The notes: generated by a model not told the origin, from the letters alone. Counted from the stretch's first letter, positions 27,491 through 42,951 are shown. The stretch: 64,000 bases of DNA from an uncultured Saprospiraceae bacterium (GCA_964423205.1 CAYRDX010000009.1:6535-70534), one strand, 5' to 3'. Program-made: numbers and translations.

Positions 27491-27936
27491 TTTTTACTGT
27501 TTTAAGAAGGCAGAAAGATAAACCTGTGGTTGAAATGGCTACCATCCTGGCTATTCAATTTTCCATGTTTATCGAAAATAAAGTGAAGGATTTTTTGCAC
27601 AGACTTTCTTTTATGAGCCAAAGCATGATTTTGACCTGCGATGAATCAGTACCATAATTTTCTCAGGACAAAAGTCATCCTATTGCCAATCTCGCAGCTG
27701 TATGTGATGACAATTACCACCCCTGATTTTTACAGCATTTGAATAATCCCCAATTTTTCTAACTTTCGCCCATCGGGTTCTTTTCAAAGTCGGACAAATG
27801 AAAAGACCTGTTTTACTGCATTAAAAGGGCTTATATTCTGGAAATCGCCATCCCTTAAGTCCTTTTACACCTCTCCACAACTGGCGATTGATGAATGATT
27901 TATGTCAGTACACACAAAGTCATAAATTCAAAAACT

Positions 27937-29598
27937 ATGGGATCAAACAAAGGTATTGAGAAAGCCGAACTCGACATGATAGTGGATGCTATCAAAGCCT
28001 ATGCAACGGAAAATTTTCCGGAATCACGCCTGCTGGAACTGGACCACAATGACGAATACCCAATTGAAGACATCCGTAAAATGTGCGGCGAGGGTTTGGG
28101 CTTGCACCTCATTTTTATACCCCAGGAATATGAAGGAATGGGAGGAGGAGCATGGGACTCATACAGGGTTTGTGAAACCATGGCCAGCATCGACCTCGGT
28201 GTGGCAACCGGAATTTTTGCCACTTTCCTCGGTGCCGACCCCATTGTTTTTGGGGCAACCGAAGATCAAAAGAAGAATTGGCTTAGCCGCATAGCTGTTG
28301 AGGGATTGCTGCTGGCTTATGGTGCCACCGAACCTGATGCCGGCTCTGACTTAGGTGCTTTACGCACCACTGCAACTCCGGTAATGAAAGATGGTAAGGT
28401 CACAGGCTACAAACTCAATGGTGCCAAGCAGTGGATAAGCAATGGTGGTTATGCCGACATGTACACCATTTTGGCAAATGCCCCCGGCGGACCTACCTGG
28501 TTCGTGCTCGAAAAAGGTGCTGAAGGATTCGCATACGGAAAACCGGAAGACAAGCATGGTATCCGCACCAGCAATACCGCCGCACTTTCACTTGAAGAAG
28601 TTTATGTGCCGGCTGAAAATCTGGTTGGTGAAGGTGAAGGAAAAGGTCTGTATCAGGCGCAACTCGTATTTGGCTACACCCGTCTGATGGTTGCCGCTTT
28701 CGGACTTGGAGGCGGCTGGGGCGCACTCAACAGGGCTATCCCTTATTCGCAGGAAAGGATTCAAAGAGGTACACCACTTTCAGAAAAGCAGGGATATACC
28801 CACAAATTGATCGTTCCCAATGTCGCCCGTTTGGAAGCTGCCCGGTCTTATGTTGAGGAAACAGCAGAAAGGATTGACAATGACGAAGGCAATCTCAACA
28901 CCGAAGGAGCGATAGCAAAATACATGGCTACGGTTTCAGGTAATCAGGCAGCCGACGACAGCATTCAGGCCCTCGGTGGTTATGGTTTCACCAAAGAATA
29001 CATGGTTGAAAAACACAAGCGCGATGTGCGCATCACGACCATTTACGAAGGTACCTCCGAAATCATGGAGATGACCATCAGCCGTGACCGCTGGCAATTG
29101 CACCTGAAAACTCAAGGCCAGTACTACCATGATATGGCCCGGCAGATGGAAAGTCTGCATATCCAAAATCCAAACGTCGGTGCCAATATCGCCGCCATTG
29201 CTATGCATACACTCGCAGACCTGCTGGAGCAGGCCAGGGTAAGGCGACTGACACGCCATCAGCATATCCTGTTGCGCATTGGTGAGTGGATAGCCTGGGC
29301 AGAATGTGCCGGTTCTATGGCCAGAAGGGCCGTGCGGGCTGCCAATGGCACTCTACACGAGAAGGCTGACAACCGTTTTGATGCAAATGCACTGGCTACA
29401 CTTAGTCGCATTTATGCTCGCGAAGCCGCCATGAAAGTAGGTCAGGATGGCTTGAGATGGATACTGGGAGCGGATGCACTTACTCCAGCAGAGGCTGCAG
29501 CTTTTGAAAGTAAACTCAATTTGTCCAGTATCTATCTGGTTCAGACCGGTATGATCAGCGACATGGATGCCATTTGTGATGTAATTTATAAGAGATAG
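27937..29598 (+). CDS. acyl-CoA dehydrogenase family protein with a ~170-aa C-terminal extension
   Basis: [26 protein letters not shown] and [10 protein letters not shown] (catalytic Glu context). ATG 27937 is preferred. The gene ends 51 bp upstream of the megasynthase gene on the same strand. Confidence 0.85.
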
Positions 29599-29649: not shown

Positions 29650-32600
29650 ATGGAAAAAGCAACACATAAAACAGTAGCGATTGTTGGTATTGGAGCAGTG
29701 ATGCCTGACGCCCACGATTTACCACTATTCTGGAATAATATTAAACAGGGAAAATACAGTGTAACCGAAGTCCCTGAAAATAGATGGAGTTTGGATAAAT
29801 ACTACGACCCCGATCCAAAAGTTCCGGACAAAACCTACAGCAAAATTGGAGGCTGGGTGAAAGATGATTATTGGGATCCTCTGAAATGGGGTTTGCCTAT
29901 TCCGCCAAGAATCTGCGACCAGATGGACAATACACAACGCTGGGCCATCAGTGCTACCAGACAGGCATTGGCAGATTTTGGTTTCCCTGAGAAGGATTTT
30001 GACCGCGACCGTACAGCCGTAATTTTTGGTGTGGCCATGGGAGGCGACCAACACTTGTATTCTGCAGCCCGGATTTTTGTCCCTGAATATATTGGTTTGC
30101 TGGACAAATCACCTGGATTTGCCACTCTCCCTGCTGATTTACGCAAGAAAATTATCGGCGAGATGACCGGCCAATTAGGGGATATATTCCCCAGCATTTC
30201 AGAAGATACCATGCCTGGTGAACTGTCGAATATTGTTGCTGGCCGCATCGCAGCACTATACAATTTCCACGGACCAAATTACGTGGCTGATGCAGCCTGT
30301 GCTTCCGCAATGGCCGGCATTTCTGCAGCTATCGAAGGTTTGGTCAGTCACGACTACGACATGGTTGTAACTGGAGGCATCGATGCCAACATGAGCCCGA
30401 CAACCTTTGTGAAATTCTGTAAAATTGGTGCACTCTCAGCCACTGGTACAAGGCCTTATGCCGAAGGAGCCGATGGTTTTATCATGGGAGAAGGGGCTGC
30501 AGTTTTCCTGCTGAAACGACTGGCAGATGCTGAGCGCGATGGTGATAAAATATATGCTGTCATTCGCTCGGTAGGCGGATCCAGCGACGGTAAAGGAAAG
30601 GGCATCACGGCTCCCAACCCGGCAGGTCAGGTATTTGCTGTGAAAAGAGCCTGGGAAAATTCCGGCGTTTCACCTTCAACTGCTACCATGATAGAAGGAC
30701 ATGGTACATCGACATCCGTGGGTGATGCTGTGGAATTGAAATGCCTGCAGGATGTCTTCGGACAATTCAACCTGCCGGTTGGGTCAATCGCTCTGGGTTC
30801 CATTAAATCCAATATCGGCCACCTGAAGGGTGCTGCAGGAGCTGCGGGAATTGCGAAGGCCGTCATGTCATTGCATGAAAAAGTGCTGCCACCCAGCATC
30901 AACTTCCATTCCCCCAATTCCGGTTTTGAATTCGAAAAATCACCTTTTGCTGTGAACACACATTTGAGGCCTTGGGAGATGAAAAACGGAATCCCGCGCC
31001 GTTGTGGTGTGAGTGCATTCGGTTTTGGTGGAACAAATTTCCATGTGGTTCTGGAAGAACACATACCAGGAAAAATACTTTCCGAACAAAAAACTCAGGT
31101 ATTCATGGCCAGCGAACCGGAAGCACCCCATGCTGCACCATTGAAAGTCCCTCTCAGAGGGGCGATGGTGAAAGGTACAAGTTCAAAGGAGGCTTTGGTT
31201 GCTTTCCTGGAAGAAAGCCTTACCAAAGCAGAAGGCGGATGGACGCCAGCCATTGAACCACCACTGAAGGCTGACTTAAAAGCTGATCATCGCATTGCCC
31301 TTGATTTTGAAAATTCAACCGACCTGGCCGGTAAAATCAAGAGAGCTATAAACGGTTTGCAATCCGACAATCCCAAAATATGGGATGCACTGAATGCCAA
31401 AGGTATTTTTTATAGCCAGGGGCCGGTTACGAAAACGGCATTCCTCTTCACTGGTCAGGGTTCCCAGTACATCAATATGCTGAAAGAGCTGAAAGAAATT
31501 GAACCCATCGTGAAGAAAATTTTCGACGAGGCCGATGAAGTCATGAAGCCCTTGTTGGGAAAGCCCTTGACGGAGTACATCTTTTTCGATAGAAACGATA
31601 AAGAAGCGGTGGAAGCAGCCACCAAAAACCTGATGCAGACGGAAATAACACAACCCGCTGTATTGTCAGTTGATTATGCCCTTTTTAAAATGATGGAAGC
31701 TTACGGGATAAAACCCGACTATGTCATGGGTCACAGTTTAGGGGAATATGGAGCTTTAGTTGCTTCAGGAGCGCTGGAGTTTGCCAGCGCACTGAAAGTG
31801 GTCAGTGCCCGCGGTGCGGAAATGGCCAACGTGAAAGTGGAGGACAAGGGCATCATGGCTGCAGTTTTCGCTTCTCCGGACCAGATTTCGGAAGTCATCA
31901 GCAAGATTGATGGTTATGTTGAAATTGCCAATGTGAACAGTTTCGGGCAATGCGTGATAGGCGGTGAAACAGAATCGACTTTGGCAGCCATGAAAGCCTG
32001 TAAAGCAGCGGGTTACCATGTGACTCAATTGCCGGTTAGCCATGCCTTCCACACAAGAATTGTAGCGCCTGCCAGTATTCCATTTGCCAATGCGCTCAGA
32101 AATGGGAAATTGAAAGCACCTTCTATTCCAGTAATTTCCAACGTTACCGGCGAATTTTATCCCACAGGAGCGGATGTAGTTCCTGAGATACTGGATCTAC
32201 TCTCCAGGCAGATTGCCTCCCCGGTTCAGTTTGTAAAAGGCATCAACAAATTGTACGAAAGTGGTGTCCGTGTATTTGTGGAATGTGGTCCAAAAAGGGC
32301 CTTGCATGGTTTTGTCAAAGACATCACAGCTGAAAAGGAAGATGTGATGAACCTTTTCACCAACCAGCAAAAAGGTGGTGATATAGCTTCATTTAACCAG
32401 GCACTTTGTGGCTTGTATGCAGCCGGACTTGGATACGGCCGTGAAGAAATAAAAGTTGAGGTCCCACAGCAGGAAGTTCCTGCAGTGCAAGTTCAGGATA
32501 CTATGCCTGTCGCAAGCAAATCGGCTCCGGTACCAACTTTTTCCAGCCAACAGACATCATCACCGGAAACCCCTTCCAGCACACCATCTGGTGATAGATA

Positions 32601-35600
32601 TTCCCAACTAGGTAAGCTCTTTGTCGAATTCATGGACAAAGCCAATGCAGTGTACTCAGGAACTACCGGATCGCGTCCTGTGCAGGATATCTGGATAACC
32701 GGTGCAGCAGTGGGACTACCCAAGGTGGATGGAGTTTTCAGCGACTCCAACGTGGAGAAACTGCTGAATGGCGAGCAATTGATTAGTAACATTCCCGCTG
32801 AGTTTCAACAGGCCATGCTCGACAGGAATATCACACGCCTGGTGAAAATGGGACACGGCGGGCCACGGTTCGAAACCATTTCCACAATCAATGAAGTCAT
32901 AAAACTGGCCGCCCGAAAGGCCGGTATGGATTTAGCCGCCGATTTTGGATACCCCTCCAAACGTATGAGCGCCCTCGACATCACGACGGAACTGGCCATC
33001 GGTGCTGGCATCGATGCTATGCGGGATGCTGGTATTCCAATGGTCATGCACTATAAGACAACGACCACAGGCTCCAAATTACCCGACAGATGGTTGCTGC
33101 CTGCCCAGATGCAAAATGATACAGGCATCATTTTCTGTTCGGCTTTTCCTGGTTACAACAACTATGCAAAGGAAATGAGGGAGTACTTTGAAAATAAGGC
33201 TCTCAAAGAACAGTTGTCTGTATTGAACAGTCTGCGAACCAGGATAGGTGCACAAAACGGCGCAGAAAAATTACATCTGGAAATTGATTCCCAAATCCTA
33301 AGGGTTCAGAAAGAACTGGAGAAAACACCTTATTCCTTTAACCGCAGATTCTTGCTGCGGGTATTGGCAATGGGCCACTCTCAGTTTGCTGAATATATCG
33401 GAGCCAAAGGCCCCAATACGCAAATCAACTCTGCTTGCGCAAGCACAACCCTGGCAGTGGGAATGGCAAAAGACTGGATTGAAGCTGGACGTTGCAAAAG
33501 AGTTATCATAATTGCAGCCGATGACATTACAGCTGATGAAACGATTGGCTGGTTCTCCAGTGGTTTTCTGGCCGCGGGTGCAGCCGCAACAGACGCCAGG
33601 GTGGAAGACGCAGCCCTGCCATTCGACAAACGTCGCCACGGCATGATAGTCGGTATGGGTGGTGCAGCCATAGTGGTGGAATCAGGTGGTTCAGCTTCTG
33701 AAAGAGGCATCAAACCAATTTGTGAAGTACTTAGCACGGTAGCAGCTAACAGCGCTTTCCACGCCACTCAGCTCGATGTGGACCATATCAAGTGCATCAT
33801 GGAGGATCTCATAGCAGAGGCAGAACGCAAGTGGGGAATCGACCGCTATGAAATTGCCGCTCAAACGGTTTTTGTCTCTCATGAAACCTATACTCCCGCC
33901 AGAGGCGGCAGTGCTTCCGCTGAAATATTTGCGCTGCGCCATGTTTTCCAGTCGGCTGCCGATAAAATAGTCATTGCCAACACGAAAGGCATGACAGGAC
34001 ATGCCATGGCAGTTGGTATTGAAGATATACTGGCCATTAAATCTCTGGAAACCGGATGGGTACCGCCTGTTCCCAATTTCAAAGAAGTTGACCCGGAACT
34101 CGGAATGCTCAACCTGTCGAAAGGAGGAGCCTATCCCATTCGTTATGCACTCAGATTGGGTGCCGGTTTTGGTTCACAAATAGCCATGAGTCTCCTGCGC
34201 TGGACACCTGCTTCCGTAGATGGGTCCAGGCCAAAACCCAATCAGTTGGGGTATGCTTATCGCATCAACGACAATGACAGATGGAGAAACTGGTTGAAGG
34301 TAATCAGCGGTAAAGACGCACCTGAAATGGAGGTTGTAAAACGAACCCTCAGGATAAAAGATAAGTTTGGTGAACTATTAAGTGAGCCAGAAGATAACCT
34401 GAACGGCTTTGCTGAAGAAACTGCATCAACTGAACAGACCGTAACGGTGGAAACCACAGGAGTCGTGGTCGAAAACAATGGCCGAACTGAGTTATCAGAT
34501 CCGGTCAGAGACCGAATTTTAACACTCATTTCAGAAAAGACAGGTTACCCGGTCGATATGCTCAATCCCGACCTTGACCTGGAGGCCGATCTGGGTATCG
34601 ACACGGTAAAACAAGCTGAATTGTTTGCCGAAATCCGCGGCGAATACGGCATTGAGCGGGACGACAACGTTCAGTTGTCCAATTTCCCGACGCTCAACCA
34701 CATTATACAGTTCGTTTACGACAAACGTCCAGGCCTAAAGCAGGCTGCCTCAACTGTTGCTACTTCCCCAACTCTATCAGCAGCCTCAATGGACGCTCCT
34801 GCAACGGCGGCGGCCTCGTCCCCCCTCGAAAGGAGTTGGGGGGTGACCTCACCAGCCCTGACTGATGGAGTCAAGGAAAAAATTCTCTTTCTCATTGCCG
34901 AAAAAACCGGCTACCCGGTTGAAATGCTCGACCCTGAGCTCGACCTGGAGGCAGACCTCGGCATCGATACAGTCAAACAGGCAGAACTCTTTGCTGAAAT
35001 CCGCGGCAACTGGGGCATCGACAGGGACGATAACCTGCAACTGGCAGATTTCCCGACTATCAATCATATCGTCCAGTTTGTCTATGACAGGAAACCAGAA
35101 TTGAAGCAGGATTCGGTTTTACTGTCTGTGACCACCACTACTTCCGCAGACCTAGTGTCTGAAAAAGCTCCGGAAGACCATATAAAGTTTAGTAATCTCG
35201 AGGCTGTCAATCAGATTCCCAGACGCATTCCAACACCGCAACTCAGACCAGCACTGAAATATTGCAAAGCATCAGGTGTGCAACTCAACGATGAAACAAC
35301 AGTGCTCGTCATGCCCGACAATGGTGGAGTCGCAAAGTCTCTCCTTTCGCAACTGAAGAAATCGGGAGCGAAAGTGCATGTGCTTGATCAAGGTATTACC
35401 GCTGACCAACTCAGCAAACAGCTCTGTGATTTATCGGCAAATGGGCCCATTCACGGCGTGTACTGGTTGCCTGCACTCGATTACGAGGGTGACATTGAAA
35501 AACTGAGTTACAGGGATTGGAAAGCAGCCACGCAACTTCGTGTGAAGCTTCTTTACGCAACAATGCGTGAACTGGTGCTGCTGAAAAACGAAAACGTTTT

Positions 35601-37716
35601 CCTCGTCTCTGCAACATGCATGGGTGGCCATTTCGGGTACGACGAAAATGGTGCGCTTGCTCCTTTGGGTGGTGCGGTTTCTGGTTTTACAAAAGCATAC
35701 AAACGGGAGCATCCTGCTGCACAGGTGAAAGTGGTCGATTTTGAGAAATCACGCAAGACCACAGCCAACGCACAATTGCTGATTGACGAAACGCTCTTAG
35801 ATCCAGGTATTGTGGAAGTCGGATACAAAGATGAACAAAGATGGAGCATTGGTTTGCAGGAGGTGCCCGTTCCGCAGGGAAGCGAAGGCATGAAACTAAC
35901 CAAAGAATCCACTTTCCTGGTTACCGGTGCAGCCGGCAGCATCACCTCGGCCATCACGGCTGACCTTGCCGCTGCATCATCGGGAACGTTCTTTCTGCTC
36001 GACCTCACTCCTTCACCTGATCAATCGGATGCTGACCTGATTCGCTTCGCAAATGATAAGGAGGGTCTGAAGCGTGAAATTTTCAACCGCATGACTGCAT
36101 CTGGCGATAAACCCACGCCAGTCAAAGTGGACAAAGAGCTCGCTGCGATCGAGCGCAGATATTCAGCCCTTGCTGCCATTGAGGCAGTAGAAAAGGCCGG
36201 TGGCACAGCACACTATTACAGCGTTGACCTTCGTGACCAAAAGGCTGTTGCGGCAGCAGTGAAGGATATCAAAAAGAAAGTGAATAGGATTGATGTTATG
36301 CTGCACGCAGGAGGATTGGAAATCAGCCGTTTGCTGCCCGACAAGTCGCCGCAGGAATTCGACCTCGTATTTGATGTAAAAGCAGATGGCTGGTACAACC
36401 TGCTTTCGTCATTTGGCGAGTTCCATATCGGGGCAACTGTGGCCTTCAGCTCTATTGCCGGAAGGTTTGGCAACGGCGGCCAGACCGACTACAGTTCCGC
36501 CAATGACTTCCTTTGCAAGAGCACATCGAGCTTCCGCACCTACCGTCCGGAGACTCGTGGCATTGCACTCGACTGGACAGCATGGGGTGGTATTGGCATG
36601 GCTACCCGGGGTTCTATCCCTACAGTTATGAAACAAGCCGGCATCGACATGCTGCCACCGGAAGCGGGAATTCCGTTTATCAGAAAAGAACTGACTGCTG
36701 CCAATACCGGAATGGAAGTGGTAGTGGCACAGCGCCTCGGCAGGATGATGGAGGAATTTGATTATAATGGTGGACTTCAACCGGAAGCCGTCAGTGAAAG
36801 ACTGCAACAAAGCAAAGGGGTGATGGTGCAGGAAGTGGTGAAAATGGGCCTCTATGAAGGACTGGTTACCAAAGCAAGCTTCAATCCAAAAGAGCAGGGC
36901 TTCCTTTTCGATCACCAGATTAACGGCACCCCGGTATTGCCGGGTGTCATGGGCATCGAAGCGATGGTGGATGCCGCCACTTGTTTATTCCCGGAACTAC
37001 ATGTTCAGTCGGTTGAAGCTGTGGACTTTTTTGCTCCGTTCAAGTTTTATCGCTCAGAACCGAGAGAAGTGTTTGTGAAAGTCATCTATCTGGCAGATGG
37101 CTCTAATGTCGCAGCTAATTGCGAGTTGTTCGGTACCCGCAAACTACATGGCCAAACCAAAGAGGAGGTGAAGACTCACTTCAGCGCCAAAGTCTTTCTC
37201 GGAGAAAAAGCACCGGAAAAACCAGCACCATTGACAAAAAAATTAGATCCTTCGAAAAAGCAGGCAGTAGCTGTGCCGGATGATATTTACAAACTTTACT
37301 TCCACGGCCCGGCCTATCAGGTCATCGAAAAGACATGGAAGAAAGGGGAAGATATGGTTGGGCTTTACGCAAACGGTATTCCAGCCAACCACCATCCGGA
37401 GGAGCTGCAAACTCTGGCCCTGCCGCGGTTTGTGGAATTGTGTTTCCAGGTGGCTGGCATCACAGAAATGGGTGGACATGGAAGAATGGGATTGCCCAGG
37501 CACCTCGACTCACTGCAAATACACAGGCAAGCTGTTATTGGCAAAGCCAATTATTACGCTGTAGTGAGTCAGGATAATGGGGCTTACCATGCTTCTGTGG
37601 TGGATTCGAAAGGTGAAGTTTACCTGACCCTGAAGGGTTACCAGACGGTTGAGTTTATTTCGGATTTTGATAAAAATCTGTTGGTGCCTTTGCAGGCTGT
37701 GGCAGGAGGAGAGTAG
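29650..37716 (+). CDS. PfaA/HglE-like iterative type I fatty-acid/polyketide megasynthase: KS - AT - second KS-like domain - ACP - ACP - KR - PKS-type DH
   Basis: 2688-aa ORF. KS1 spans about 29671-31065 (DAACASAM Cys217, HGTSTSVGD, NIGHLKGAAG). AT spans about 31441-32320 (GHSLGEYG Ser696, VSHAFHT). A Pro/Ser-rich linker follows. KS2-like spans about 32689-34203 (NSACAST Cys1263, SHETYTP, TGHAMAVG). ACP1 is about 34501-34725 and ACP2 about 34864-35095 (both LGIDTVKQAELFAEIRG). KR spans about 35250-36720 (VTGAAGSITS, Tyr2281 in DYSSAND). DH spans about 36830-37700 (His2422 in DHQINGTPVLPG). Confidence 0.9.
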   Translation: MEKATHKTVAIVGIGAVMPDAHDLPLFWNNIKQGKYSVTEVPENRWSLDKYYDPDPKVPDKTYSKIGGWVKDDYWDPLKWGLPIPPRICDQMDNTQRWAISATRQALADFGFPEKDFDRDRTAVIFGVAMGGDQHLYSAARIFVPEYIGLLDKSPGFATLPADLRKKIIGEMTGQLGDIFPSISEDTMPGELSNIVAGRIAALYNFHGPNYVADAACASAMAGISAAIEGLVSHDYDMVVTGGIDANMSPTTFVKFCKIGALSATGTRPYAEGADGFIMGEGAAVFLLKRLADAERDGDKIYAVIRSVGGSSDGKGKGITAPNPAGQVFAVKRAWENSGVSPSTATMIEGHGTSTSVGDAVELKCLQDVFGQFNLPVGSIALGSIKSNIGHLKGAAGAAGIAKAVMSLHEKVLPPSINFHSPNSGFEFEKSPFAVNTHLRPWEMKNGIPRRCGVSAFGFGGTNFHVVLEEHIPGKILSEQKTQVFMASEPEAPHAAPLKVPLRGAMVKGTSSKEALVAFLEESLTKAEGGWTPAIEPPLKADLKADHRIALDFENSTDLAGKIKRAINGLQSDNPKIWDALNAKGIFYSQGPVTKTAFLFTGQGSQYINMLKELKEIEPIVKKIFDEADEVMKPLLGKPLTEYIFFDRNDKEAVEAATKNLMQTEITQPAVLSVDYALFKMMEAYGIKPDYVMGHSLGEYGALVASGALEFASALKVVSARGAEMANVKVEDKGIMAAVFASPDQISEVISKIDGYVEIANVNSFGQCVIGGETESTLAAMKACKAAGYHVTQLPVSHAFHTRIVAPASIPFANALRNGKLKAPSIPVISNVTGEFYPTGADVVPEILDLLSRQIASPVQFVKGINKLYESGVRVFVECGPKRALHGFVKDITAEKEDVMNLFTNQQKGGDIASFNQALCGLYAAGLGYGREEIKVEVPQQEVPAVQVQDTMPVASKSAPVPTFSSQQTSSPETPSSTPSGDRYSQLGKLFVEFMDKANAVYSGTTGSRPVQDIWITGAAVGLPKVDGVFSDSNVEKLLNGEQLISNIPAEFQQAMLDRNITRLVKMGHGGPRFETISTINEVIKLAARKAGMDLAADFGYPSKRMSALDITTELAIGAGIDAMRDAGIPMVMHYKTTTTGSKLPDRWLLPAQMQNDTGIIFCSAFPGYNNYAKEMREYFENKALKEQLSVLNSLRTRIGAQNGAEKLHLEIDSQILRVQKELEKTPYSFNRRFLLRVLAMGHSQFAEYIGAKGPNTQINSACASTTLAVGMAKDWIEAGRCKRVIIIAADDITADETIGWFSSGFLAAGAAATDARVEDAALPFDKRRHGMIVGMGGAAIVVESGGSASERGIKPICEVLSTVAANSAFHATQLDVDHIKCIMEDLIAEAERKWGIDRYEIAAQTVFVSHETYTPARGGSASAEIFALRHVFQSAADKIVIANTKGMTGHAMAVGIEDILAIKSLETGWVPPVPNFKEVDPELGMLNLSKGGAYPIRYALRLGAGFGSQIAMSLLRWTPASVDGSRPKPNQLGYAYRINDNDRWRNWLKVISGKDAPEMEVVKRTLRIKDKFGELLSEPEDNLNGFAEETASTEQTVTVETTGVVVENNGRTELSDPVRDRILTLISEKTGYPVDMLNPDLDLEADLGIDTVKQAELFAEIRGEYGIERDDNVQLSNFPTLNHIIQFVYDKRPGLKQAASTVATSPTLSAASMDAPATAAASSPLERSWGVTSPALTDGVKEKILFLIAEKTGYPVEMLDPELDLEADLGIDTVKQAELFAEIRGNWGIDRDDNLQLADFPTINHIVQFVYDRKPELKQDSVLLSVTTTTSADLVSEKAPEDHIKFSNLEAVNQIPRRIPTPQLRPALKYCKASGVQLNDETTVLVMPDNGGVAKSLLSQLKKSGAKVHVLDQGITADQLSKQLCDLSANGPIHGVYWLPALDYEGDIEKLSYRDWKAATQLRVKLLYATMRELVLLKNENVFLVSATCMGGHFGYDENGALAPLGGAVSGFTKAYKREHPAAQVKVVDFEKSRKTTANAQLLIDETLLDPGIVEVGYKDEQRWSIGLQEVPVPQGSEGMKLTKESTFLVTGAAGSITSAITADLAAASSGTFFLLDLTPSPDQSDADLIRFANDKEGLKREIFNRMTASGDKPTPVKVDKELAAIERRYSALAAIEAVEKAGGTAHYYSVDLRDQKAVAAAVKDIKKKVNRIDVMLHAGGLEISRLLPDKSPQEFDLVFDVKADGWYNLLSSFGEFHIGATVAFSSIAGRFGNGGQTDYSSANDFLCKSTSSFRTYRPETRGIALDWTAWGGIGMATRGSIPTVMKQAGIDMLPPEAGIPFIRKELTAANTGMEVVVAQRLGRMMEEFDYNGGLQPEAVSERLQQSKGVMVQEVVKMGLYEGLVTKASFNPKEQGFLFDHQINGTPVLPGVMGIEAMVDAATCLFPELHVQSVEAVDFFAPFKFYRSEPREVFVKVIYLADGSNVAANCELFGTRKLHGQTKEEVKTHFSAKVFLGEKAPEKPAPLTKKLDPSKKQAVAVPDDIYKLYFHGPAYQVIEKTWKKGEDMVGLYANGIPANHHPEELQTLALPRFVELCFQVAGITEMGGHGRMGLPRHLDSLQIHRQAVIGKANYYAVVSQDNGAYHASVVDSKGEVYLTLKGYQTVEFISDFDKNLLVPLQAVAGGE

Positions 37717-37717
37717 G

Positions 37718-37904
37718 GATTGAGGAGGTTGAGGGAGTTGAGAGAAGTTAAATGAAATCCGCGAGTATAGCCTCTGCGTAACTTCGCGCGTAATCTCTGC
37801 GGTTCTCTGTGTAATATCGCAGAGCTTCCCAGAGGATACACAAAGTTACTCAGAGGAGCGGTGCGTTATTAATCACCCTCAACTCCCTTAAACTCCCTCA
37901 ACTT
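37718..37904. repeat. composite hairpin: gttgagg word arms enclosing CTCTGCG/CTCTGTG heptads
   Basis: The left arm gattgaggaggttgagggagttgagagaagtt pairs with the right arm caccctcaactcccttaaactccctcaactt. The interior holds ctctgcg ... cgcagag and cagagg units. It starts 2 nt after the megasynthase stop. Confidence 0.8.
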
Positions 37905-38022
37905 ATCTTCTGGTAACAAGAAATCATAATGTCATTACTGTCAGTAGCCTGGTTCGCCCAATCATCCTGCGAGTAACATGTTCATTCACGAGAAATTTGA
38001 ATATTGGTTTAGCTATGGCCCA

Positions 38023-38116
38023 GCCACGTAGTGGCGATACCGTTTATAGAAATGCTAATTGATGGAATTTAGTCACGTAGTGACGGCCCGAAAAGTAGGT
38101 GCCGCCACTACGTGGC
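38023..38116. repeat. three copies of a 13-nt CACGTAGTG-core motif (two direct, one inverted)
   Basis: gccacgtagtggc (38023-38035), gtcacgtagtgac (38072-38084) and gccactacgtggc (38104-38116). Copies 1 and 3 are exact reverse complements. The cluster lies about 100-190 nt upstream of the PPTase start. Confidence 0.8.
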
Positions 38117-38211
38117 TCGATAGAATTTGTGGTGTTAACTATTAACTGAATCGGGGCTAACGCCCCTTTTACTTTCAGTTTTGGGAGTACCGAAACAATA
38201 ACTTTCTAATC

Positions 38212-38910
38212 ATGTTGCCCCTCATGGTCTTTTGGCTTAGGCAAACTTCCAGTGAGTTGCCCAACTCACTGGTCTGGCTGCATCCATTGGAGTTGGAGAC
38301 ATTTTCTGCCTTTAAGTTTCCCAAAAAACAAAACGACTGGTTGCTCGGCAGATGGACGGCCAAAAAAGCCGTAATTAGTTTCCTTAAAGAAAGTCATCCC
38401 ACTCTCCAAAACTCTGATTTTGCCATCATCAGAGCAAAAGATGGGGCACCGGAAATTCACTGCGAAGCAGAACCTTTGCCTGCGTTCCTTTCACTGAGTC
38501 ACAGTCATGGAAAGGCATTTTGTATCGTTGCAAAACCTGGTTTTCGGATGGGTTGCGATTTGGAGAAAATTGAAAAACGCAGTCCACTATTCGTCCGGGA
38601 TTATTTCACTGCAAGTGAGCAGGAATTGCTCAGCGCTGTCGACTCTGAGAGACAACCACTGCTAACCAACCTTATTTGGAGTGCCAAAGAAAGCACCATG
38701 AAAGCACTGAGAACGGGGCTGCGAATTAACCCATTGCGAATTGAGGTGCAAATATCGCCTCCGCTTGATAAAGAGGAATGGCAGGAACTACGAACTGTTT
38801 ATTCAGATAACACAATCAATTTCCGTGGCTACTGGCAATCTGGAAGTGGATATGTTTACACGGTGCTTTCGGATTGCCTGGAACGGGAGTTGGAAGAGTT
38901 GAAAACTTAG
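38212..38910 (+). CDS. 4'-phosphopantetheinyl transferase (Sfp/EntD/PfaE type)
   Basis: 232-aa ORF. RWTAKKAVISFL, SLSHSHG, GCDLEKIE (Mg-binding motif) and WSAKESTMKAL (W/KEA motif). Confidence 0.85.
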   Translation: MLPLMVFWLRQTSSELPNSLVWLHPLELETFSAFKFPKKQNDWLLGRWTAKKAVISFLKESHPTLQNSDFAIIRAKDGAPEIHCEAEPLPAFLSLSHSHGKAFCIVAKPGFRMGCDLEKIEKRSPLFVRDYFTASEQELLSAVDSERQPLLTNLIWSAKESTMKALRTGLRINPLRIEVQISPPLDKEEWQELRTVYSDNTINFRGYWQSGSGYVYTVLSDCLERELEELKT

Positions 38911-40162: not shown

Positions 40163-41038
40163 ATGAAAAAATCATTTGTCTATCTAATTGTTGCTGCAAC
40201 TGTACTTTTTGCGGGCATTGCCGGAGTTTATTTTTTCAATCAAGAGGAGCCGCATAAGGAACAAAACGCTGAAGAAACGGGTCCAGTCGTTGACCAAGGC
40301 GATGCTACAGCTACTATCGGTGGTCAAACAGATCAGGAATCTCTTGCTCAAGAAAAAATACCAGCTGGGCAAAGTCGTCTAAACATGCGCTTTCTGGATG
40401 TTGGTACTGGCACCGCCGTAATTCCCGACTTTGTTGAAATCAACTTGAGGGGAACTGGAGGCAAAGGATTGCGAAGCACTAAAAACGATGTCGCTGATAA
40501 TGGAAGCCTGTCCGTCGATTTGGAAAATGGATTGTATGATATTACGGTTCGTAAAGCAGGTTATCTCCCTATGTCCACCTTTTTTGACCTGAAGAACAAT
40601 GACCTTAAGGTGAACTTCAACCTGGAGCCGATTACTGAAAAAGAAGAGCTTTCCTCACAGTACATCACGACACTGCAAAGGCCGGATGCATTGGTTGTAG
40701 TTGGATATGTGGTGGACGACCAAAGTGGCAAGCCGTTGGCCAATGTGAATGTACAACCCGCCGACAAAGTGGCTTTCGCCATTACAGACAAAAACGGCTT
40801 CTTCCAGTTTCACCTTCCATTACCTTCGGTGAAAGAATCTGTTGCGAAGAGAAACAAGCTTTATTTTCAAAAAGAAGGTTACACAACTGAAGTCCGATCC
40901 AATTTCGATATATGGCCAAATGGGGACATGATTCTGCAAATTCGCATGAGAAGCGGAACCGGAACCCATGAAGAAAAAATACTTCTGGGCCGGAATGCCA
41001 GCATCAGTTTGTTGGATAAAAGCAATGCAAAACAATGA
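40163..41038 (+). CDS. membrane-anchored protein with two carboxypeptidase-regulatory-like (CarboxypepD_reg) domains
   Basis: N-terminal TM anchor. Two beta-sandwich-like modules end in GLYDITVRKAGYLP and YFQKEGYTT. The stop overlaps the next start (ATGA at 41035). Confidence 0.6.
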   Translation: MKKSFVYLIVAATVLFAGIAGVYFFNQEEPHKEQNAEETGPVVDQGDATATIGGQTDQESLAQEKIPAGQSRLNMRFLDVGTGTAVIPDFVEINLRGTGGKGLRSTKNDVADNGSLSVDLENGLYDITVRKAGYLPMSTFFDLKNNDLKVNFNLEPITEKEELSSQYITTLQRPDALVVVGYVVDDQSGKPLANVNVQPADKVAFAITDKNGFFQFHLPLPSVKESVAKRNKLYFQKEGYTTEVRSNFDIWPNGDMILQIRMRSGTGTHEEKILLGRNASISLLDKSNAKQ

Positions 41039-42951
41039 ATATCACGAAACGAATCACGCGGATACTTTCGGTGCTCATTGTCCTGAGTTTTGCGGGTGAA
41101 CTGTCCGCCCAGCAATGCCCGACCACCATTCGGGTAGGCACAAGTTGCTCTTGTCACACTTGCACAGGCACCATTAATGTGGTGAACTACACGACTTATG
41201 TGAAGCGGGTTTTGCCTCAGGAATGGCTCAATTGCTGGGGTAATCAGGTTGGTGGCACCCATTCTTTGAGAGCCGGTGCAGTGGCCATTCGCTCCTATAC
41301 GATTCCCCGGATGGCAGCTTATGTGAACAGTCATGGAAACGGATTGTATGATATATGCAGCACCACCTGCTGCCATGTGTATGGCACTTCACAATTTACC
41401 AATTCCAACCTGGCAGTGGACAGCACGGAAGGCGTGGTGTTGGTTGCCAATGGAAAAATCCAGTTATCGGAATACGCCGCGGAACAGAACAACCATTCTG
41501 CTTGTGGTAATGGCAAAGTGGGTAATGGAACCGCCCAATGGCCATGTAAAGATGATTCACCATGTAGCGGCCAAACCTACAACGGGCACGGCCGGGGTAT
41601 GTGCCAGAATGGTTCCGCGCGCTGGGCTACAGGGTTGAACTTCGCAAACAGCTCCTGCAACTGGCTGGCACCTCATGGCTACGGTACCAAAACATGGCAG
41701 GAGATATTGGCACATTATTACCCAAACTGGACGCTGACTCAGTGCGGTACATCTACTTGTCCCGCACCGGTAAATGATAATTGCACTGGAGCAATATCAC
41801 TGATACCGGCCTCTGAATGCAATTTTCAAACATTCAGTACAGATTGCGCATCCCAAAGTTTGGCAGCACTTCCCAATTGCAATGGTTTTACTTTGGGAAA
41901 TGCCGATGACGATGTATGGTTTAAATTTGCTGCCATTGCCGGACAATCTTATACCATTCAGGTTCTGAACGGCAATAATTTCGATGGTGTCATTGACCTG
42001 AGAGAATCCTGCAGCGGAAGTAGCCTGGCCTGTGCAGACCAACCCGGAACAGCAGGCGAAACTAACTCCGTAACCATCAACTCTTCAATTCATCAGACCT
42101 CCTATTTCAGGGTGTATCACTACGGTGCCGGTTCTGGAGGTGGTAGTTTTCAGGTATGTGTAAGCGCAGCATCACCCTGCCAGACTCCGGGAGCGCCATC
42201 CAATGTCACAGCAATGCCTATCGGAATAAACTCCGCCAATTTCTCCTGGTCAGCAGGCAGCCCGGCGGGTACGGAAGTGACTTATCACTGGGTCGTTGGC
42301 GATAATCCTGTAATCAAATACGGCGATGGTATTGCCTTCGGCAAAACAAGCGGTACAACAGCAAGCACGGGTGTTTTGGCCTGCGCCAGCACTTATTATT
42401 TCAGGGTGTATGCACTGACGGCCTGTAATAACACTTTTTCTGCTTACGCAACTGCTGAGGCGTTTACCACTTTTTCTGCTGATACGGCTGTCAGCCTGGT
42501 TGGAAATACACTTAAGGCCAATGCTTCTCCTGCCACTTATCAGTGGATAAATTGCAGTACAATGGCCAATATAACTGGTGCAACCGGACAGACCTATTCG
42601 CCACCTGGCAGCGGCGCTTATGCTGTCAGAGTGACTCAGAACAATTGTACTGCTGTTTCAAAGTGTCAGACCTGGACGAAGGCGACAGAGAACAAATTAT
42701 CCTGGGAGCTGAATATTTTTCCGAATCCTGTTGTTCACATGCTACATATTCAGGCCCGAAATGTTTCTTCAGGACAATCGGAAATCATTTTATATAACAC
42801 CGTTGGACAAATGGTTTTTAGTCAAAAGGTAATGATTGCGGCGGATGTGTGGGGAGAAAGTATCAATACCCGGAATCTGAATCCAGGTATCTATATGTTG
42901 GTTATCAGGCAGGGTAGGTACAGTCAGGTTTTTAAAATTCAAAAGCTGTAG
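41035..42951 (+). CDS. secreted SpoIID/LytB-like domain protein with Cys-rich and beta-sandwich modules and a T9SS C-terminal sorting domain
   Basis: YVKRVLPQEW...SLRAGAVAIRSY...DICSTTCCHVYG...VDSTEGVVL resembles the SpoIID fold motifs. The C-terminal LNIFPNPVVHMLHIQ...IYNTVGQMVF...LNPGIYMLVI...FKIQKL is a type A T9SS CTD. Confidence 0.7.
   Translation: MNITKRITRILSVLIVLSFAGELSAQQCPTTIRVGTSCSCHTCTGTINVVNYTTYVKRVLPQEWLNCWGNQVGGTHSLRAGAVAIRSYTIPRMAAYVNSHGNGLYDICSTTCCHVYGTSQFTNSNLAVDSTEGVVLVANGKIQLSEYAAEQNNHSACGNGKVGNGTAQWPCKDDSPCSGQTYNGHGRGMCQNGSARWATGLNFANSSCNWLAPHGYGTKTWQEILAHYYPNWTLTQCGTSTCPAPVNDNCTGAISLIPASECNFQTFSTDCASQSLAALPNCNGFTLGNADDDVWFKFAAIAGQSYTIQVLNGNNFDGVIDLRESCSGSSLACADQPGTAGETNSVTINSSIHQTSYFRVYHYGAGSGGGSFQVCVSAASPCQTPGAPSNVTAMPIGINSANFSWSAGSPAGTEVTYHWVVGDNPVIKYGDGIAFGKTSGTTASTGVLACASTYYFRVYALTACNNTFSAYATAEAFTTFSADTAVSLVGNTLKANASPATYQWINCSTMANITGATGQTYSPPGSGAYAVRVTQNNCTAVSKCQTWTKATENKLSWELNIFPNPVVHMLHIQARNVSSGQSEIILYNTVGQMVFSQKVMIAADVWGESINTRNLNPGIYMLVIRQGRYSQVFKIQKL

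What the first reader, a model, noticed from the sequence alone, without database searches (positions are those of the whole stretch)
34501..35100. Both tandem carrier domains carry Thr where the phosphopantetheinylated Ser of the DSL motif should be
ACP1 reads LEADLGIDTVKQAELFAEIRGEYG (Thr1652, codon ACG at 34603-34605). ACP2 reads LEADLGIDTVKQAELFAEIRGNWG (Thr1774, codon ACA at 34969-34971). I aligned them by eye to E. coli ACP (EDLGADSLDTVELV), and the Thr occupies the Ser36 position. All characterised ACP/PCP domains are modified on that Ser. The two Thr codons differ, and the surrounding nucleotide sequence has diverged while the peptide is conserved. This argues for selection rather than a sequencing error. 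A PPTase gene sits immediately downstream. There are three possibilities. The carriers could be pantetheinylated on Thr, which would be unusual chemistry. They could use another residue. Or they could be non-functional carriers.
Basis: partly seen in the sequence, partly recalled or inferred. Interest (0 to 1): 0.78.

Follow-up and report, generated by a model that had tools for sequence, protein, structure and literature searches.

The report
Carrier domains with threonine attachment site
A widespread but uncharacterised bacterial lipid/polyketide synthase family carries threonine instead of the textbook serine at the spot where its carrier domains receive their phosphopantetheine arm, which points to an undescribed threonine-linked form of this modification.

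Summary
Both carrier domains of the 2688-aa synthase (29650..37716) have Thr at the first residue of helix II, where every known ACP/PCP has the modified Ser.

It is not a strain defect. It is the family rule:
- 541 of 542 ACP domains in 120 full-length homologues have Thr, and none has Ser.
- 291 of 291 have Thr in 79 genome loci from many phyla, with all four Thr codons in use.
- No other Ser or Cys is conserved, and 30% of the domains contain no Ser at all.

The gene belongs to the uncharacterised 'Type R secondary lipid synthase' cluster of Shulse & Allen 2011. That cluster is an acyl-CoA-dehydrogenase gene, a KS-AT-KS-ACPn-KR-DH synthase, sometimes an ACC gene, and a dedicated Sfp-type PPTase.

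The catalytic motifs of the synthase and the PPTase are intact. The PPTase family is found only next to such synthases in the cases I sampled. Ser-bearing relatives of the same ACP exist in sister architectures, and one Type R array reads S,T,T,T.

Best explanation (about 0.65): Thr is the phosphopantetheine acceptor and is loaded by the co-inherited PPTase. This is not shown experimentally. I found no report of a Thr carrier in the searchable literature. I rate it a new variant of a known kind, with interest about 0.74.

The parts
27895..29598 (+). Acyl-CoA dehydrogenase-family flavoprotein (567 aa, with a C-terminal extension of about 170 aa). It is the invariant upstream partner of the synthase and a candidate trans-acting enoyl reductase or dehydrogenase.
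   Evidence: Pfam Acyl-CoA_dh_N/M/1. The best NCBIfam match is acryloyl-CoA reductase AcrC. It lies upstream of the synthase in 59 of 60 related loci. In L001 and L002 it is preceded by ETF alpha/beta and a Fer4/CCG oxidoreductase.
29650..37716 (+). Type R PfaA-like megasynthase, 2688 aa: KS (7-481), AT (598-898), second KS or 'CLF' (about 1000-1560), ACP1, ACP2, KR (2088-2313), PS-DH (2402-2666).
   Evidence: Pfam. TIGR02813 PfaA scores 955 bits, below its cut-off of 1010. Intact motifs: KS1 DAACASA, EGHGTST, KSNIGH; AT GHSLGE and SHAFHT; KS2 NSACAST, VSHETYT, NTKGMTGH; KR YSSAN; DH HQINGTPVLPG.
34492..34731 (+). ACP1 carrier domain (residues 1615-1694). Thr1652 (ACG, 34603-34605) sits at the phosphopantetheine-acceptor position.
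34858..35097 (+). ACP2 carrier domain (residues about 1737-1816). Thr1774 (ACA, 34969-34971) sits at the acceptor position. The 80-aa domain contains no Ser.
37717..38211 (.). 496-nt spacer between the synthase and the PPTase, with two sets of inverted repeats. Its role is unknown.
   Evidence: arms 37724-37751 / 37869-37896, and 38022-38041 / 38098-38117.
38212..38910 (+). Dedicated Sfp-type (group II) 4'-phosphopantetheinyl transferase, 232 aa. Motifs LSLSHS, GCDLE and WSAKESTMKA are intact.
   Evidence: PF01648 at 66 bits. Aligns to human AASDHPPT and to Sfp. An orthologue lies downstream of the synthase in 25 of 27 loci with at least 7 kb of downstream sequence. Four of four sampled family members sit next to a Thr-ACP synthase.

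Best explanation
The two domains are true acyl carrier domains. In them the 4'-phosphopantetheine arm is attached to the hydroxyl of Thr (Thr1652, Thr1774) rather than Ser. The Sfp-type PPTase encoded just downstream makes this attachment by the usual mechanism: Mg2+, CoA as donor, and a Glu acting as general base.

The holo-ACPs then serve an iterative KS-AT-KS-KR-DH synthase. The neighbouring acyl-CoA-dehydrogenase-like flavoprotein probably acts as the missing enoyl reductase. Together they would make a still unknown fatty-acyl or polyketide lipid.

The Ser-to-Thr change arose once, at the base of this 'Type R' family, and has been fixed since.

Why Thr is kept is speculation. Three possibilities:
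- Insulation from housekeeping AcpS-type PPTases and from ACP phosphodiesterases.
- Greater resistance of the Thr phosphodiester to beta-elimination.
- A restrained orientation of the arm.

Shown here: the position, the fold, the conservation, the synteny and the intact catalytic motifs. Inferred: the modification itself and its enzyme.
For: 1. Position. Thr aligns with the DSL Ser of solved ACPs and is the N-terminal residue of helix II in a confident model.

2. Conservation.
- 541 Thr, 1 Met and 0 Ser in 542 ACPs of 120 full-length homologues that are 52-71% identical, from Bacteroidota, Acidobacteriota, Calditrichota and Binatia.
- 291 of 291 Thr in 79 genome loci plus the window, using ACG, ACC, ACA and ACT.
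- At least 571 matching stretches in species-representative genomes of more than 10 phyla.

3. No alternative nucleophile. No conserved Ser or Cys, and 30% of domains are Ser-free.

4. The machine looks alive. KS, AT, KR and DH motifs are conserved, and the tandem arrays hold 2-7 ACPs.

5. A PPTase with intact GxDxE and WSxKESxxK motifs is co-inherited. In the reverse direction, 4 of 4 family members on long contigs lie next to a Thr-ACP synthase. The window cluster has no other carrier that the PPTase could serve.

6. Equivalence with Ser.
- Sister synthases (AT-ACP1-3-KR-DH plus PPTase) carry the same KTGYP...LDLEADLGID-S-VKQAE motif with Ser.
- One true Type R cluster, L097, has ACPs reading S,T,T,T, followed by the family PPTase.
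- One lineage has Met in the first of four ACPs only, as expected if a dead copy is tolerated through redundancy.
Against: - There is no experimental evidence of any kind. No mass shift has been measured, and I found no precedent for phosphopantetheinyl-Thr.
- From my own knowledge (Keating, Carey & Cronan 1995), E. coli ACP S36T stays apo in vivo. It is used as an apo-ACP control, and the plasmid is listed in PMC10607373. So at least AcpS-type enzymes do not readily use Thr.
- The family PPTase shows no obvious active-site remodelling relative to Sfp that would explain Thr use.
- Ser is almost wholly absent inside the family, although it is one nucleotide away. This means Thr is specifically required, and the simple 'Thr equals Ser' picture does not explain that.
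Confidence: 0.65

Rival explanations
1. The Thr hydroxyl carries a different group or works by different chemistry. Examples: direct O-acyl (oxoester) tethering of intermediates, or a CoA-derived or other phospho-linked cofactor that is not plain 4'-phosphopantetheine. The PF01648 enzyme would install it.
For: Ser is strictly avoided inside the family (0 of 542; 0 of 291) even though Ser relatives exist elsewhere. This hints that Thr does something Ser cannot. Thr co-varies with Val at +1 and Gln at +3, against Ile and Arg/Lys in Ser-type ACPs.
Against: The PPTase has the canonical CoA/Mg2+ and catalytic motifs. The KS and AT domains are canonical thioester enzymes with Cys-His-His and GHSxG/HAFH motifs, and they need a long thiol arm. 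An S,T,T,T array exists. No accessory enzyme for another cofactor is conserved in the cluster.
Confidence: 0.1
2. The tandem domains are never modified. They act as structural or docking modules, and the synthase uses a free-standing holo-ACP (for example the housekeeping AcpP) or CoA thioesters. The PPTase would serve some carrier encoded elsewhere in the genome.
For: AcpS-type enzymes do not use Thr (own knowledge; for use of the S36T construct). The partner flavoprotein belongs to the acyl-CoA dehydrogenase family.
Against: The ACP is among the most conserved segments, with a median of 69% identity across phyla, including the exact helix-II recognition face. Copy number of 2-7 varies as it does in PUFA synthases, where copy number sets throughput (PMC5067506, abstract). 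PPTase and synthase are linked in both directions. No free-standing ACP gene is conserved in the cluster. A purely structural role would not hold Thr invariant.
Confidence: 0.12
3. Phosphopantetheine is attached to another residue of the domain: a nearby Ser, or one of the two other invariant Thr at -21 (KTGYP) and +29 (FPT).
For: Two other Thr are nearly invariant (98-99%).
Against: There is no conserved Ser. ACP2 of the window has none, and 30% of family domains have none. The other Thr map to loop I and to the N-cap of helix IV in the model, away from the PPTase-facing start of helix II. Equivalent positions are not modified in any known ACP.
Confidence: 0.03
4. Sequencing or assembly error, or a recently inactivated pseudogene in this one strain.
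For: None beyond how unusual the residue is.
Against: The two sites use different codons, with 12 silent differences around them. The same residue occurs in more than 1000 domains from independent assemblies. The ORF is intact over 8 kb.
Confidence: 0.01

Closest known systems
Type R secondary lipid synthase gene cluster (Shulse & Allen 2011, PLoS One 6:e20146; PMC3098273)
   Same: One pfaA-like gene with KS-MAT-'CLF'-ACPn-KR, followed by a PPTase gene. In Koribacter-like Acidobacteria an ACC gene lies between them, as in L002, L095 and L096. Distribution covers Acidobacteria and Chloroflexi among others. The PPTase has the P1b'-type hShxH motif (LSLSH here).
   Different: The paper does not mention the residue at the attachment site; the words 'threonine' and 'serine' do not occur in it. 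It also does not mention the conserved upstream acyl-CoA dehydrogenase, the DH domain, or the fact that the 'CLF' keeps its Cys. The window protein has 2 ACPs, against 3-6 in the definition. The product is still unknown.
PfaA tandem ACPs of PUFA synthases (motif LGIDSIKRVEIL)
   Same: Tandem repeats of a four-helix ACP between AT/KS and KR. The local motif is the same: (D/E)LG(I/V)D-x-(I/V)K. They are served by a dedicated Sfp-type PPTase (PfaE). They are the next-best hits in the exhaustive search.
   Different: PfaA ACPs have Ser, followed by Ile and Arg/Lys. Here it is Thr-Val-Lys-Gln. PUFA synthases use the PfaD enoyl reductase and the PfaB and PfaC subunits. Here there is a fused second KS and an ACAD-family partner. 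TIGR02813 scores below its cut-off.
Ser-type sister synthases found here (L083-L092: AT-ACP1-3-KR-DH plus PPTase)
   Same: Almost the same ACP motif, KTGYPxxMLxxxLDLEADLGID-S-VKQAE, and the same AT...ACPn-KR-DH order with a PPTase next door.
   Different: They have Ser at the site and are at most 51% identical to any Thr-type ACP. They have no second KS and no ACAD. Their PPTases are only distantly related, at 20-37 bits against 49-177 bits within the family.
Sfp / PfaE / HetI group II phosphopantetheinyl transferases
   Same: Two-lobed PF01648 enzyme of about 230 aa, with conserved SH, GxDxE and WSxKESxxK motifs.
   Different: All characterised members transfer to Ser. This orthologous group is found next to Thr carriers. 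Its Thr activity is untested.

Membership tests
Acyl/peptidyl carrier domain (PF00550, PP-binding) | Sequence match to the family profile above the curated threshold | tested here: met
   55.1 bits for the whole protein and 64.1 bits for the didomain, against a cut-off of 20.8. Two stretches, each covering the full profile.
Acyl/peptidyl carrier domain (PF00550, PP-binding) | Four-helix-bundle ACP fold | tested here: met
   AF2 model with pLDDT 91.4. Foldseek TM 0.80-0.84 to AntF, AcpP and other ACPs.
Acyl/peptidyl carrier domain (PF00550, PP-binding) | Conserved Ser at the N-terminus of helix II (DSL / GxDS motif) as the attachment site | tested here: not met
   Thr at that position in both domains and in essentially all family members.
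Acyl/peptidyl carrier domain (PF00550, PP-binding) | Post-translational 4'-phosphopantetheinylation | not testable with these tools
   Needs mass spectrometry of the protein.
Type R secondary lipid synthase cluster (Shulse & Allen 2011) | Single pfaA homologue with KS-MAT-CLF-ACP(3-6)-KR | tested here: met
   KS-AT-KS-ACP2-KR-DH. The only deviation is 2 ACPs. Homologues have 2-7.
Type R secondary lipid synthase cluster (Shulse & Allen 2011) | PPTase gene downstream, with the P1b' motif hShxH rather than FNxSH | tested here: met
   PPTase at 38212..38910 with LSLSH. Definition taken.
Type R secondary lipid synthase cluster (Shulse & Allen 2011) | KS phylogenetic placement within the Type R clade, with Koribacter, Solibacter, Roseiflexus and Elusimicrobium | tested here: inconclusive
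   No tree was built with the reference strains. The closest homologues include Acidobacteriota/Terriglobia and Chloroflexota loci with identical synteny, including the Koribacter-type ACC insertion.
PUFA synthase PfaA (TIGR02813) | Score above the curated cut-off, and PfaB/C/D partners | tested here: not met
   955 bits against a cut-off of 1010, matching only residues 8-909. No pfaB, pfaC or pfaD genes in the window.
Sfp-type (group II) PPTase | PF01648 above threshold, with Mg2+-binding GxDxE and catalytic WxxKE(S/A)xxK | tested here: met
   66.2 bits against a cut-off of 25. GCDLE and WSAKESTMKA are present and invariant in the family.

The most novel reading that the evidence does not exclude
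A whole, phylogenetically widespread class of megasynthases uses O-(4'-phosphopantetheinyl)-threonine as its prosthetic-group linkage. A dedicated PPTase subfamily that prefers Thr installs it. This would make the carriers orthogonal to housekeeping PPTases and to ACP hydrolases. It would be a new post-translational modification, and a natural orthogonal carrier/PPTase pair.
Probability: 0.3. Interest if true: 0.88.

Novelty: new variant of a known kind. Interest (0 to 1): 0.74.

Why it matters
Attachment of phosphopantetheine to an invariant Ser is a textbook constant of fatty-acid, polyketide and non-ribosomal peptide synthesis. Domain-annotation rules and engineering tags depend on it.

A large natural family with Thr at that site has four consequences:
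1. If modified, it would define a new protein modification and a new PPTase specificity.
2. It offers a ready-made orthogonal carrier/PPTase pair for synthetic biology and protein labelling.
3. Active-site checks that require Ser would wrongly call these carriers inactive.
4. It draws attention to an abundant, uncharacterised lipid pathway. That pathway is found in Acidobacteriota, Bacteroidota, Gemmatimonadota, Myxococcota, Actinomycetota, Chloroflexota and others. It appears to pair a type I synthase with an ACAD/ETF-type reductase.

The question can be tested directly with one co-expression and one mass spectrum.

Tried and rejected
- Ten literature searches, by concept and by sequence string (plus reading), found no report of a Thr carrier or of Type R biochemistry. 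The hits on 'threonine residue' were irrelevant.
- The Beld et al. PPTase review (PMC3918677) is not held.
- Organism identification failed. The window's synthase and PPTase are in the protein collection (P0121, P0242; NCBI; contig of 85,957 bp), but exact-match contig look-ups returned nothing and the clusters carry no names. From the nearest homologues and a T9SS-tailed neighbour, the window is probably from Saprospiraceae (Bacteroidota).
- I looked for a PPTase feature that would explain Thr use. All invariant residues of the family are the general Sfp-family invariants. The frequent Cys in GCDLE lies on the core-facing side of the strand by inference. No determinant was identified.
- I considered a hidden alternative Ser and rejected it.
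- I considered gene conversion between the two ACPs and rejected it.
- Window neighbours (peptidases, sugar genes, an aldo-keto reductase, T9SS proteins) appear unrelated to the cluster. This organism has no ETF or ACC genes next to the cluster.
- I did not model a PPTase-ACP complex.

Full report
OBSERVATION

The ORF 29650..37716 (+) encodes a 2688-aa protein. Pfam gives the order KS (7-481), AT (598-898), a second KS-like domain, two PP-binding domains, KR (2088-2313) and PS-DH (2402-2666).

Both carrier domains read LEADLGIDTVKQAELFAEIRG.

Three results place the Thr at the acceptor position:
- phmmer alignments to solved ACPs put the window's D-T on the D-S of the DSL motif in every alignment shown.
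- An AlphaFold2 model of ACP1, built on a family alignment, has pLDDT 91.4. Its helix II begins exactly at the Thr.
- The model matches apo and holo ACP structures at TM about 0.8.

The two copies are 74% identical in protein and 70% in DNA, with 30 synonymous codon differences. There are 12 silent differences within the 63 nt that encode the identical 21-residue motif.

NOT A STRAIN DEFECT BUT A FAMILY TRAIT

A search with the didomain returned 2047 proteins. All of the best 120 are multi-ACP fragments with LEADLG[IV]DTVKQAE.

A search with the whole protein avoids bias from the motif. It returned 120 full-length homologues, 52-71% identical and named as Saprospiraceae, Lewinellaceae, Calditrichaeota, Acidobacteria and Binatia. 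Their 542 ACP motifs contain 541 Thr, one Met and no Ser, with 2-6 ACPs per protein.

They come from Acidobacteriota, Bacteroidota, Gemmatimonadota, Myxococcota, Actinomycetota, Chloroflexota, Calditrichota, KSB1 and Proteobacteria. In the 79 loci with motifs, plus the window, 291 of 291 sites are Thr. The codons are ACG (140), ACC (137), ACA (8) and ACT (6).

Across 728 unique domains:
- No column has more than 22% Ser.
- 30% of domains have no Ser, including ACP2 of the window.
- 98% have no Cys.

So there is no alternative attachment residue.

The single Met is real. It occurs in two independent sequences, and only in the first of four ACPs.

WHAT THE LOCUS IS

The cluster is compact and highly syntenic. 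An acyl-CoA-dehydrogenase-family gene lies directly upstream in 59 of 60 loci. The family PPTase lies downstream in 25 of 27 loci with enough flank. It sits either immediately after the synthase or after a multidomain acetyl-CoA carboxylase gene of about 5.4 kb. In some phyla ETF alpha/beta and a Fer4/CCG oxidoreductase precede the ACAD.

This matches the 'Type R' secondary lipid synthase cluster of Shulse & Allen (PMC3098273). That cluster is KS-MAT-CLF-ACP(3-6)-KR plus a downstream PPTase, with ACC in between in Koribacter, and its product is unknown. The paper does not discuss the attachment residue.

In the window the neighbours are unrelated genes. The organism is probably a member of Saprospiraceae.

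IS THE MACHINE FUNCTIONAL?

The following motifs are present in the window protein and conserved in the family:
- KS1: Cys-His-His.
- AT: GHSxG and HAFH.
- KR: YxxxN.
- DH: HxxxGxxxxP.

The so-called CLF also keeps Cys and both His.

The PPTase (38212..38910) has the SH, GxDxE and WSxKESxxK motifs of Sfp-type enzymes. These are invariant in 54 cluster-linked orthologues.

The linkage holds in both directions. A search with the PPTase found 1354 relatives. Four of four sampled on long contigs lie right after a synthase whose ACPs all read DTVKQAE.

The window cluster has no other carrier protein that the PPTase could serve.

RELATION TO SER-TYPE CARRIERS

A metagenome-wide scan for the Ser (TCN) version, DLG[IVM]DSVKQAE, found only 10 stretches. 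All are in a different, sister architecture: AT-ACP1-3-KR-DH plus a distantly related PPTase, with no second KS and no ACAD. Their ACPs are at most 51% identical to Thr-type ACPs, against a median of 69% within the Thr type.

An exhaustive HMMER search of 1.84 billion representatives gave 6078 hits. In the top 141 proteins, 408 domains have Thr and 168 have Ser. The Ser domains are mostly the PUFA-synthase motif LGIDSIKRVEIL. Thr goes with Val at +1 (398 of 408) and Gln at +3. Ser goes with Ile at +1 (161 of 168) and Arg/Lys at +3.

Three proteins mix both residues. The clearest is L097, a complete Type R cluster whose four ACPs read S,T,T,T. It is followed by the family PPTase at 149 bits.

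Together these results show that the Thr site is homologous to, and used alongside, a normal Ser site.

MECHANISM

The most economical reading is that Thr is the phosphopantetheine acceptor and that the co-inherited PPTase loads it. Three things then follow naturally: a conserved, multi-copy carrier array; an intact thioester-dependent synthase; and a dedicated PPTase.

Against this reading:
- Nothing has been measured.
- I found no precedent in ten literature searches.
- From my own knowledge, E. coli ACP S36T stays apo. The construct is used as an apo control.
- The family PPTase shows no evident active-site change.
- The near-total exclusion of Ser suggests that Thr is specifically needed.

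My proposals for why Thr is kept are insulation from housekeeping PPTases and hydrolases, greater stability of the linkage, or arm geometry. These are speculative.

I give 0.65 to Thr pantetheinylation. The remainder is spread over a different Thr-linked chemistry (0.10), unmodified structural domains (0.12), another residue (0.03) and error (0.01).

NOVELTY

The cluster type has been known since 2011, and the fold and the enzymes are ordinary. The Thr at the attachment site, its family-wide invariance and its coupling to one PPTase subfamily appear to be undescribed. I class this as a new variant of a known kind.

A single co-expression and mass-spectrometry experiment would decide it.

Noticed in passing
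window 27895-29598; L001 1-4465; L002 1-4989: The acyl-CoA-dehydrogenase-like gene upstream has a C-terminal extension of about 170 aa. It is the invariant partner of the synthase (59 of 60 loci), and its best named relative is the ETF-dependent acryloyl-CoA reductase AcrC. In other phyla ETF alpha/beta and a Fer4/CCG oxidoreductase precede it. This suggests an ETF-coupled trans enoyl reductase that completes a fatty-acid-type cycle.
   Followed up: partly
window 29650-37716, residues about 1000-1560 (Cys1263): The domain that the literature calls a chain-length factor keeps the full Cys-His-His triad (NSACAST, VSHETYT, NTKGMTGH). It does so in most homologues too, so it may be a second active ketosynthase.
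   Followed up: partly
window 34492-35097: The window synthase has only two ACPs, the fewest seen in the family. Homologues have 3-7.
   Followed up: yes
L097 10580-11700 and 14298-15059: This is a complete Type R cluster whose four tandem ACPs read Ser, Thr, Thr, Thr at the attachment site, followed by the family PPTase. The Ser copy is divergent and has Ile at +1.
   Followed up: yes
P0221 residue 1665 and P0241 residue 1667: The first of four ACPs has Met (GIDMVKQAE) where the other three have Thr. It appears in two independent sequences and is probably a dead copy tolerated through redundancy.
   Followed up: yes
top 141 proteins (P0362-P0502): The attachment residue co-varies with its neighbours: Thr with Val(+1) and Gln(+3), Ser with Ile(+1) and Arg/Lys(+3). 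The +1 residue is the hydrophobic anchor for PPTase binding in known complexes, so this may be compensatory. It may also simply mark the clade.
   Followed up: partly
L083-L092 (for example L090 3750-8570, L085 1077-6035): These are Ser-type sister synthases (AT-ACP1-3-KR-DH plus a distant PPTase). Their ACP motif is almost identical: KTGYPxxML...LDLEADLGIDSVKQAE. They are uncharacterised, and some appear to come from low-GC organisms.
   Followed up: partly
P0439, P0382, P0429, P0371: These are more divergent Thr-type arrays (DTVKQVEIF, ELGIDTVKQVDVL, DTVKQATIL). They often end in an extra, degenerate carrier-like domain that has Ser, Ala or no acceptor residue.
   Followed up: no
window 37717-38211: The 496-nt spacer between the synthase and the PPTase holds two sets of inverted repeats: 28-nt arms at 37724-37751 / 37869-37896, and 20-nt arms at 38022-38041 / 38098-38117 around CCACGTAGTGGC. 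It could be a terminator, a regulatory element or a small inserted element.
   Followed up: partly
L097 15256-18534; L002 21023-21122: Some Type R clusters are followed by a glycyl-radical enzyme with its activase, or by a radical-SAM gene. L001 has a wax-ester synthase/DGAT, an Fe-ADH and an aldehyde dehydrogenase next door. These may be tailoring steps that differ between lineages.
   Followed up: no
window 40163-42951: Downstream genes encode a CarboxypepD_reg-domain protein and a SpoIID-domain protein with a Por_Secre_tail (type IX secretion) sorting domain. This is consistent with a Bacteroidota origin for the window.
   Followed up: no
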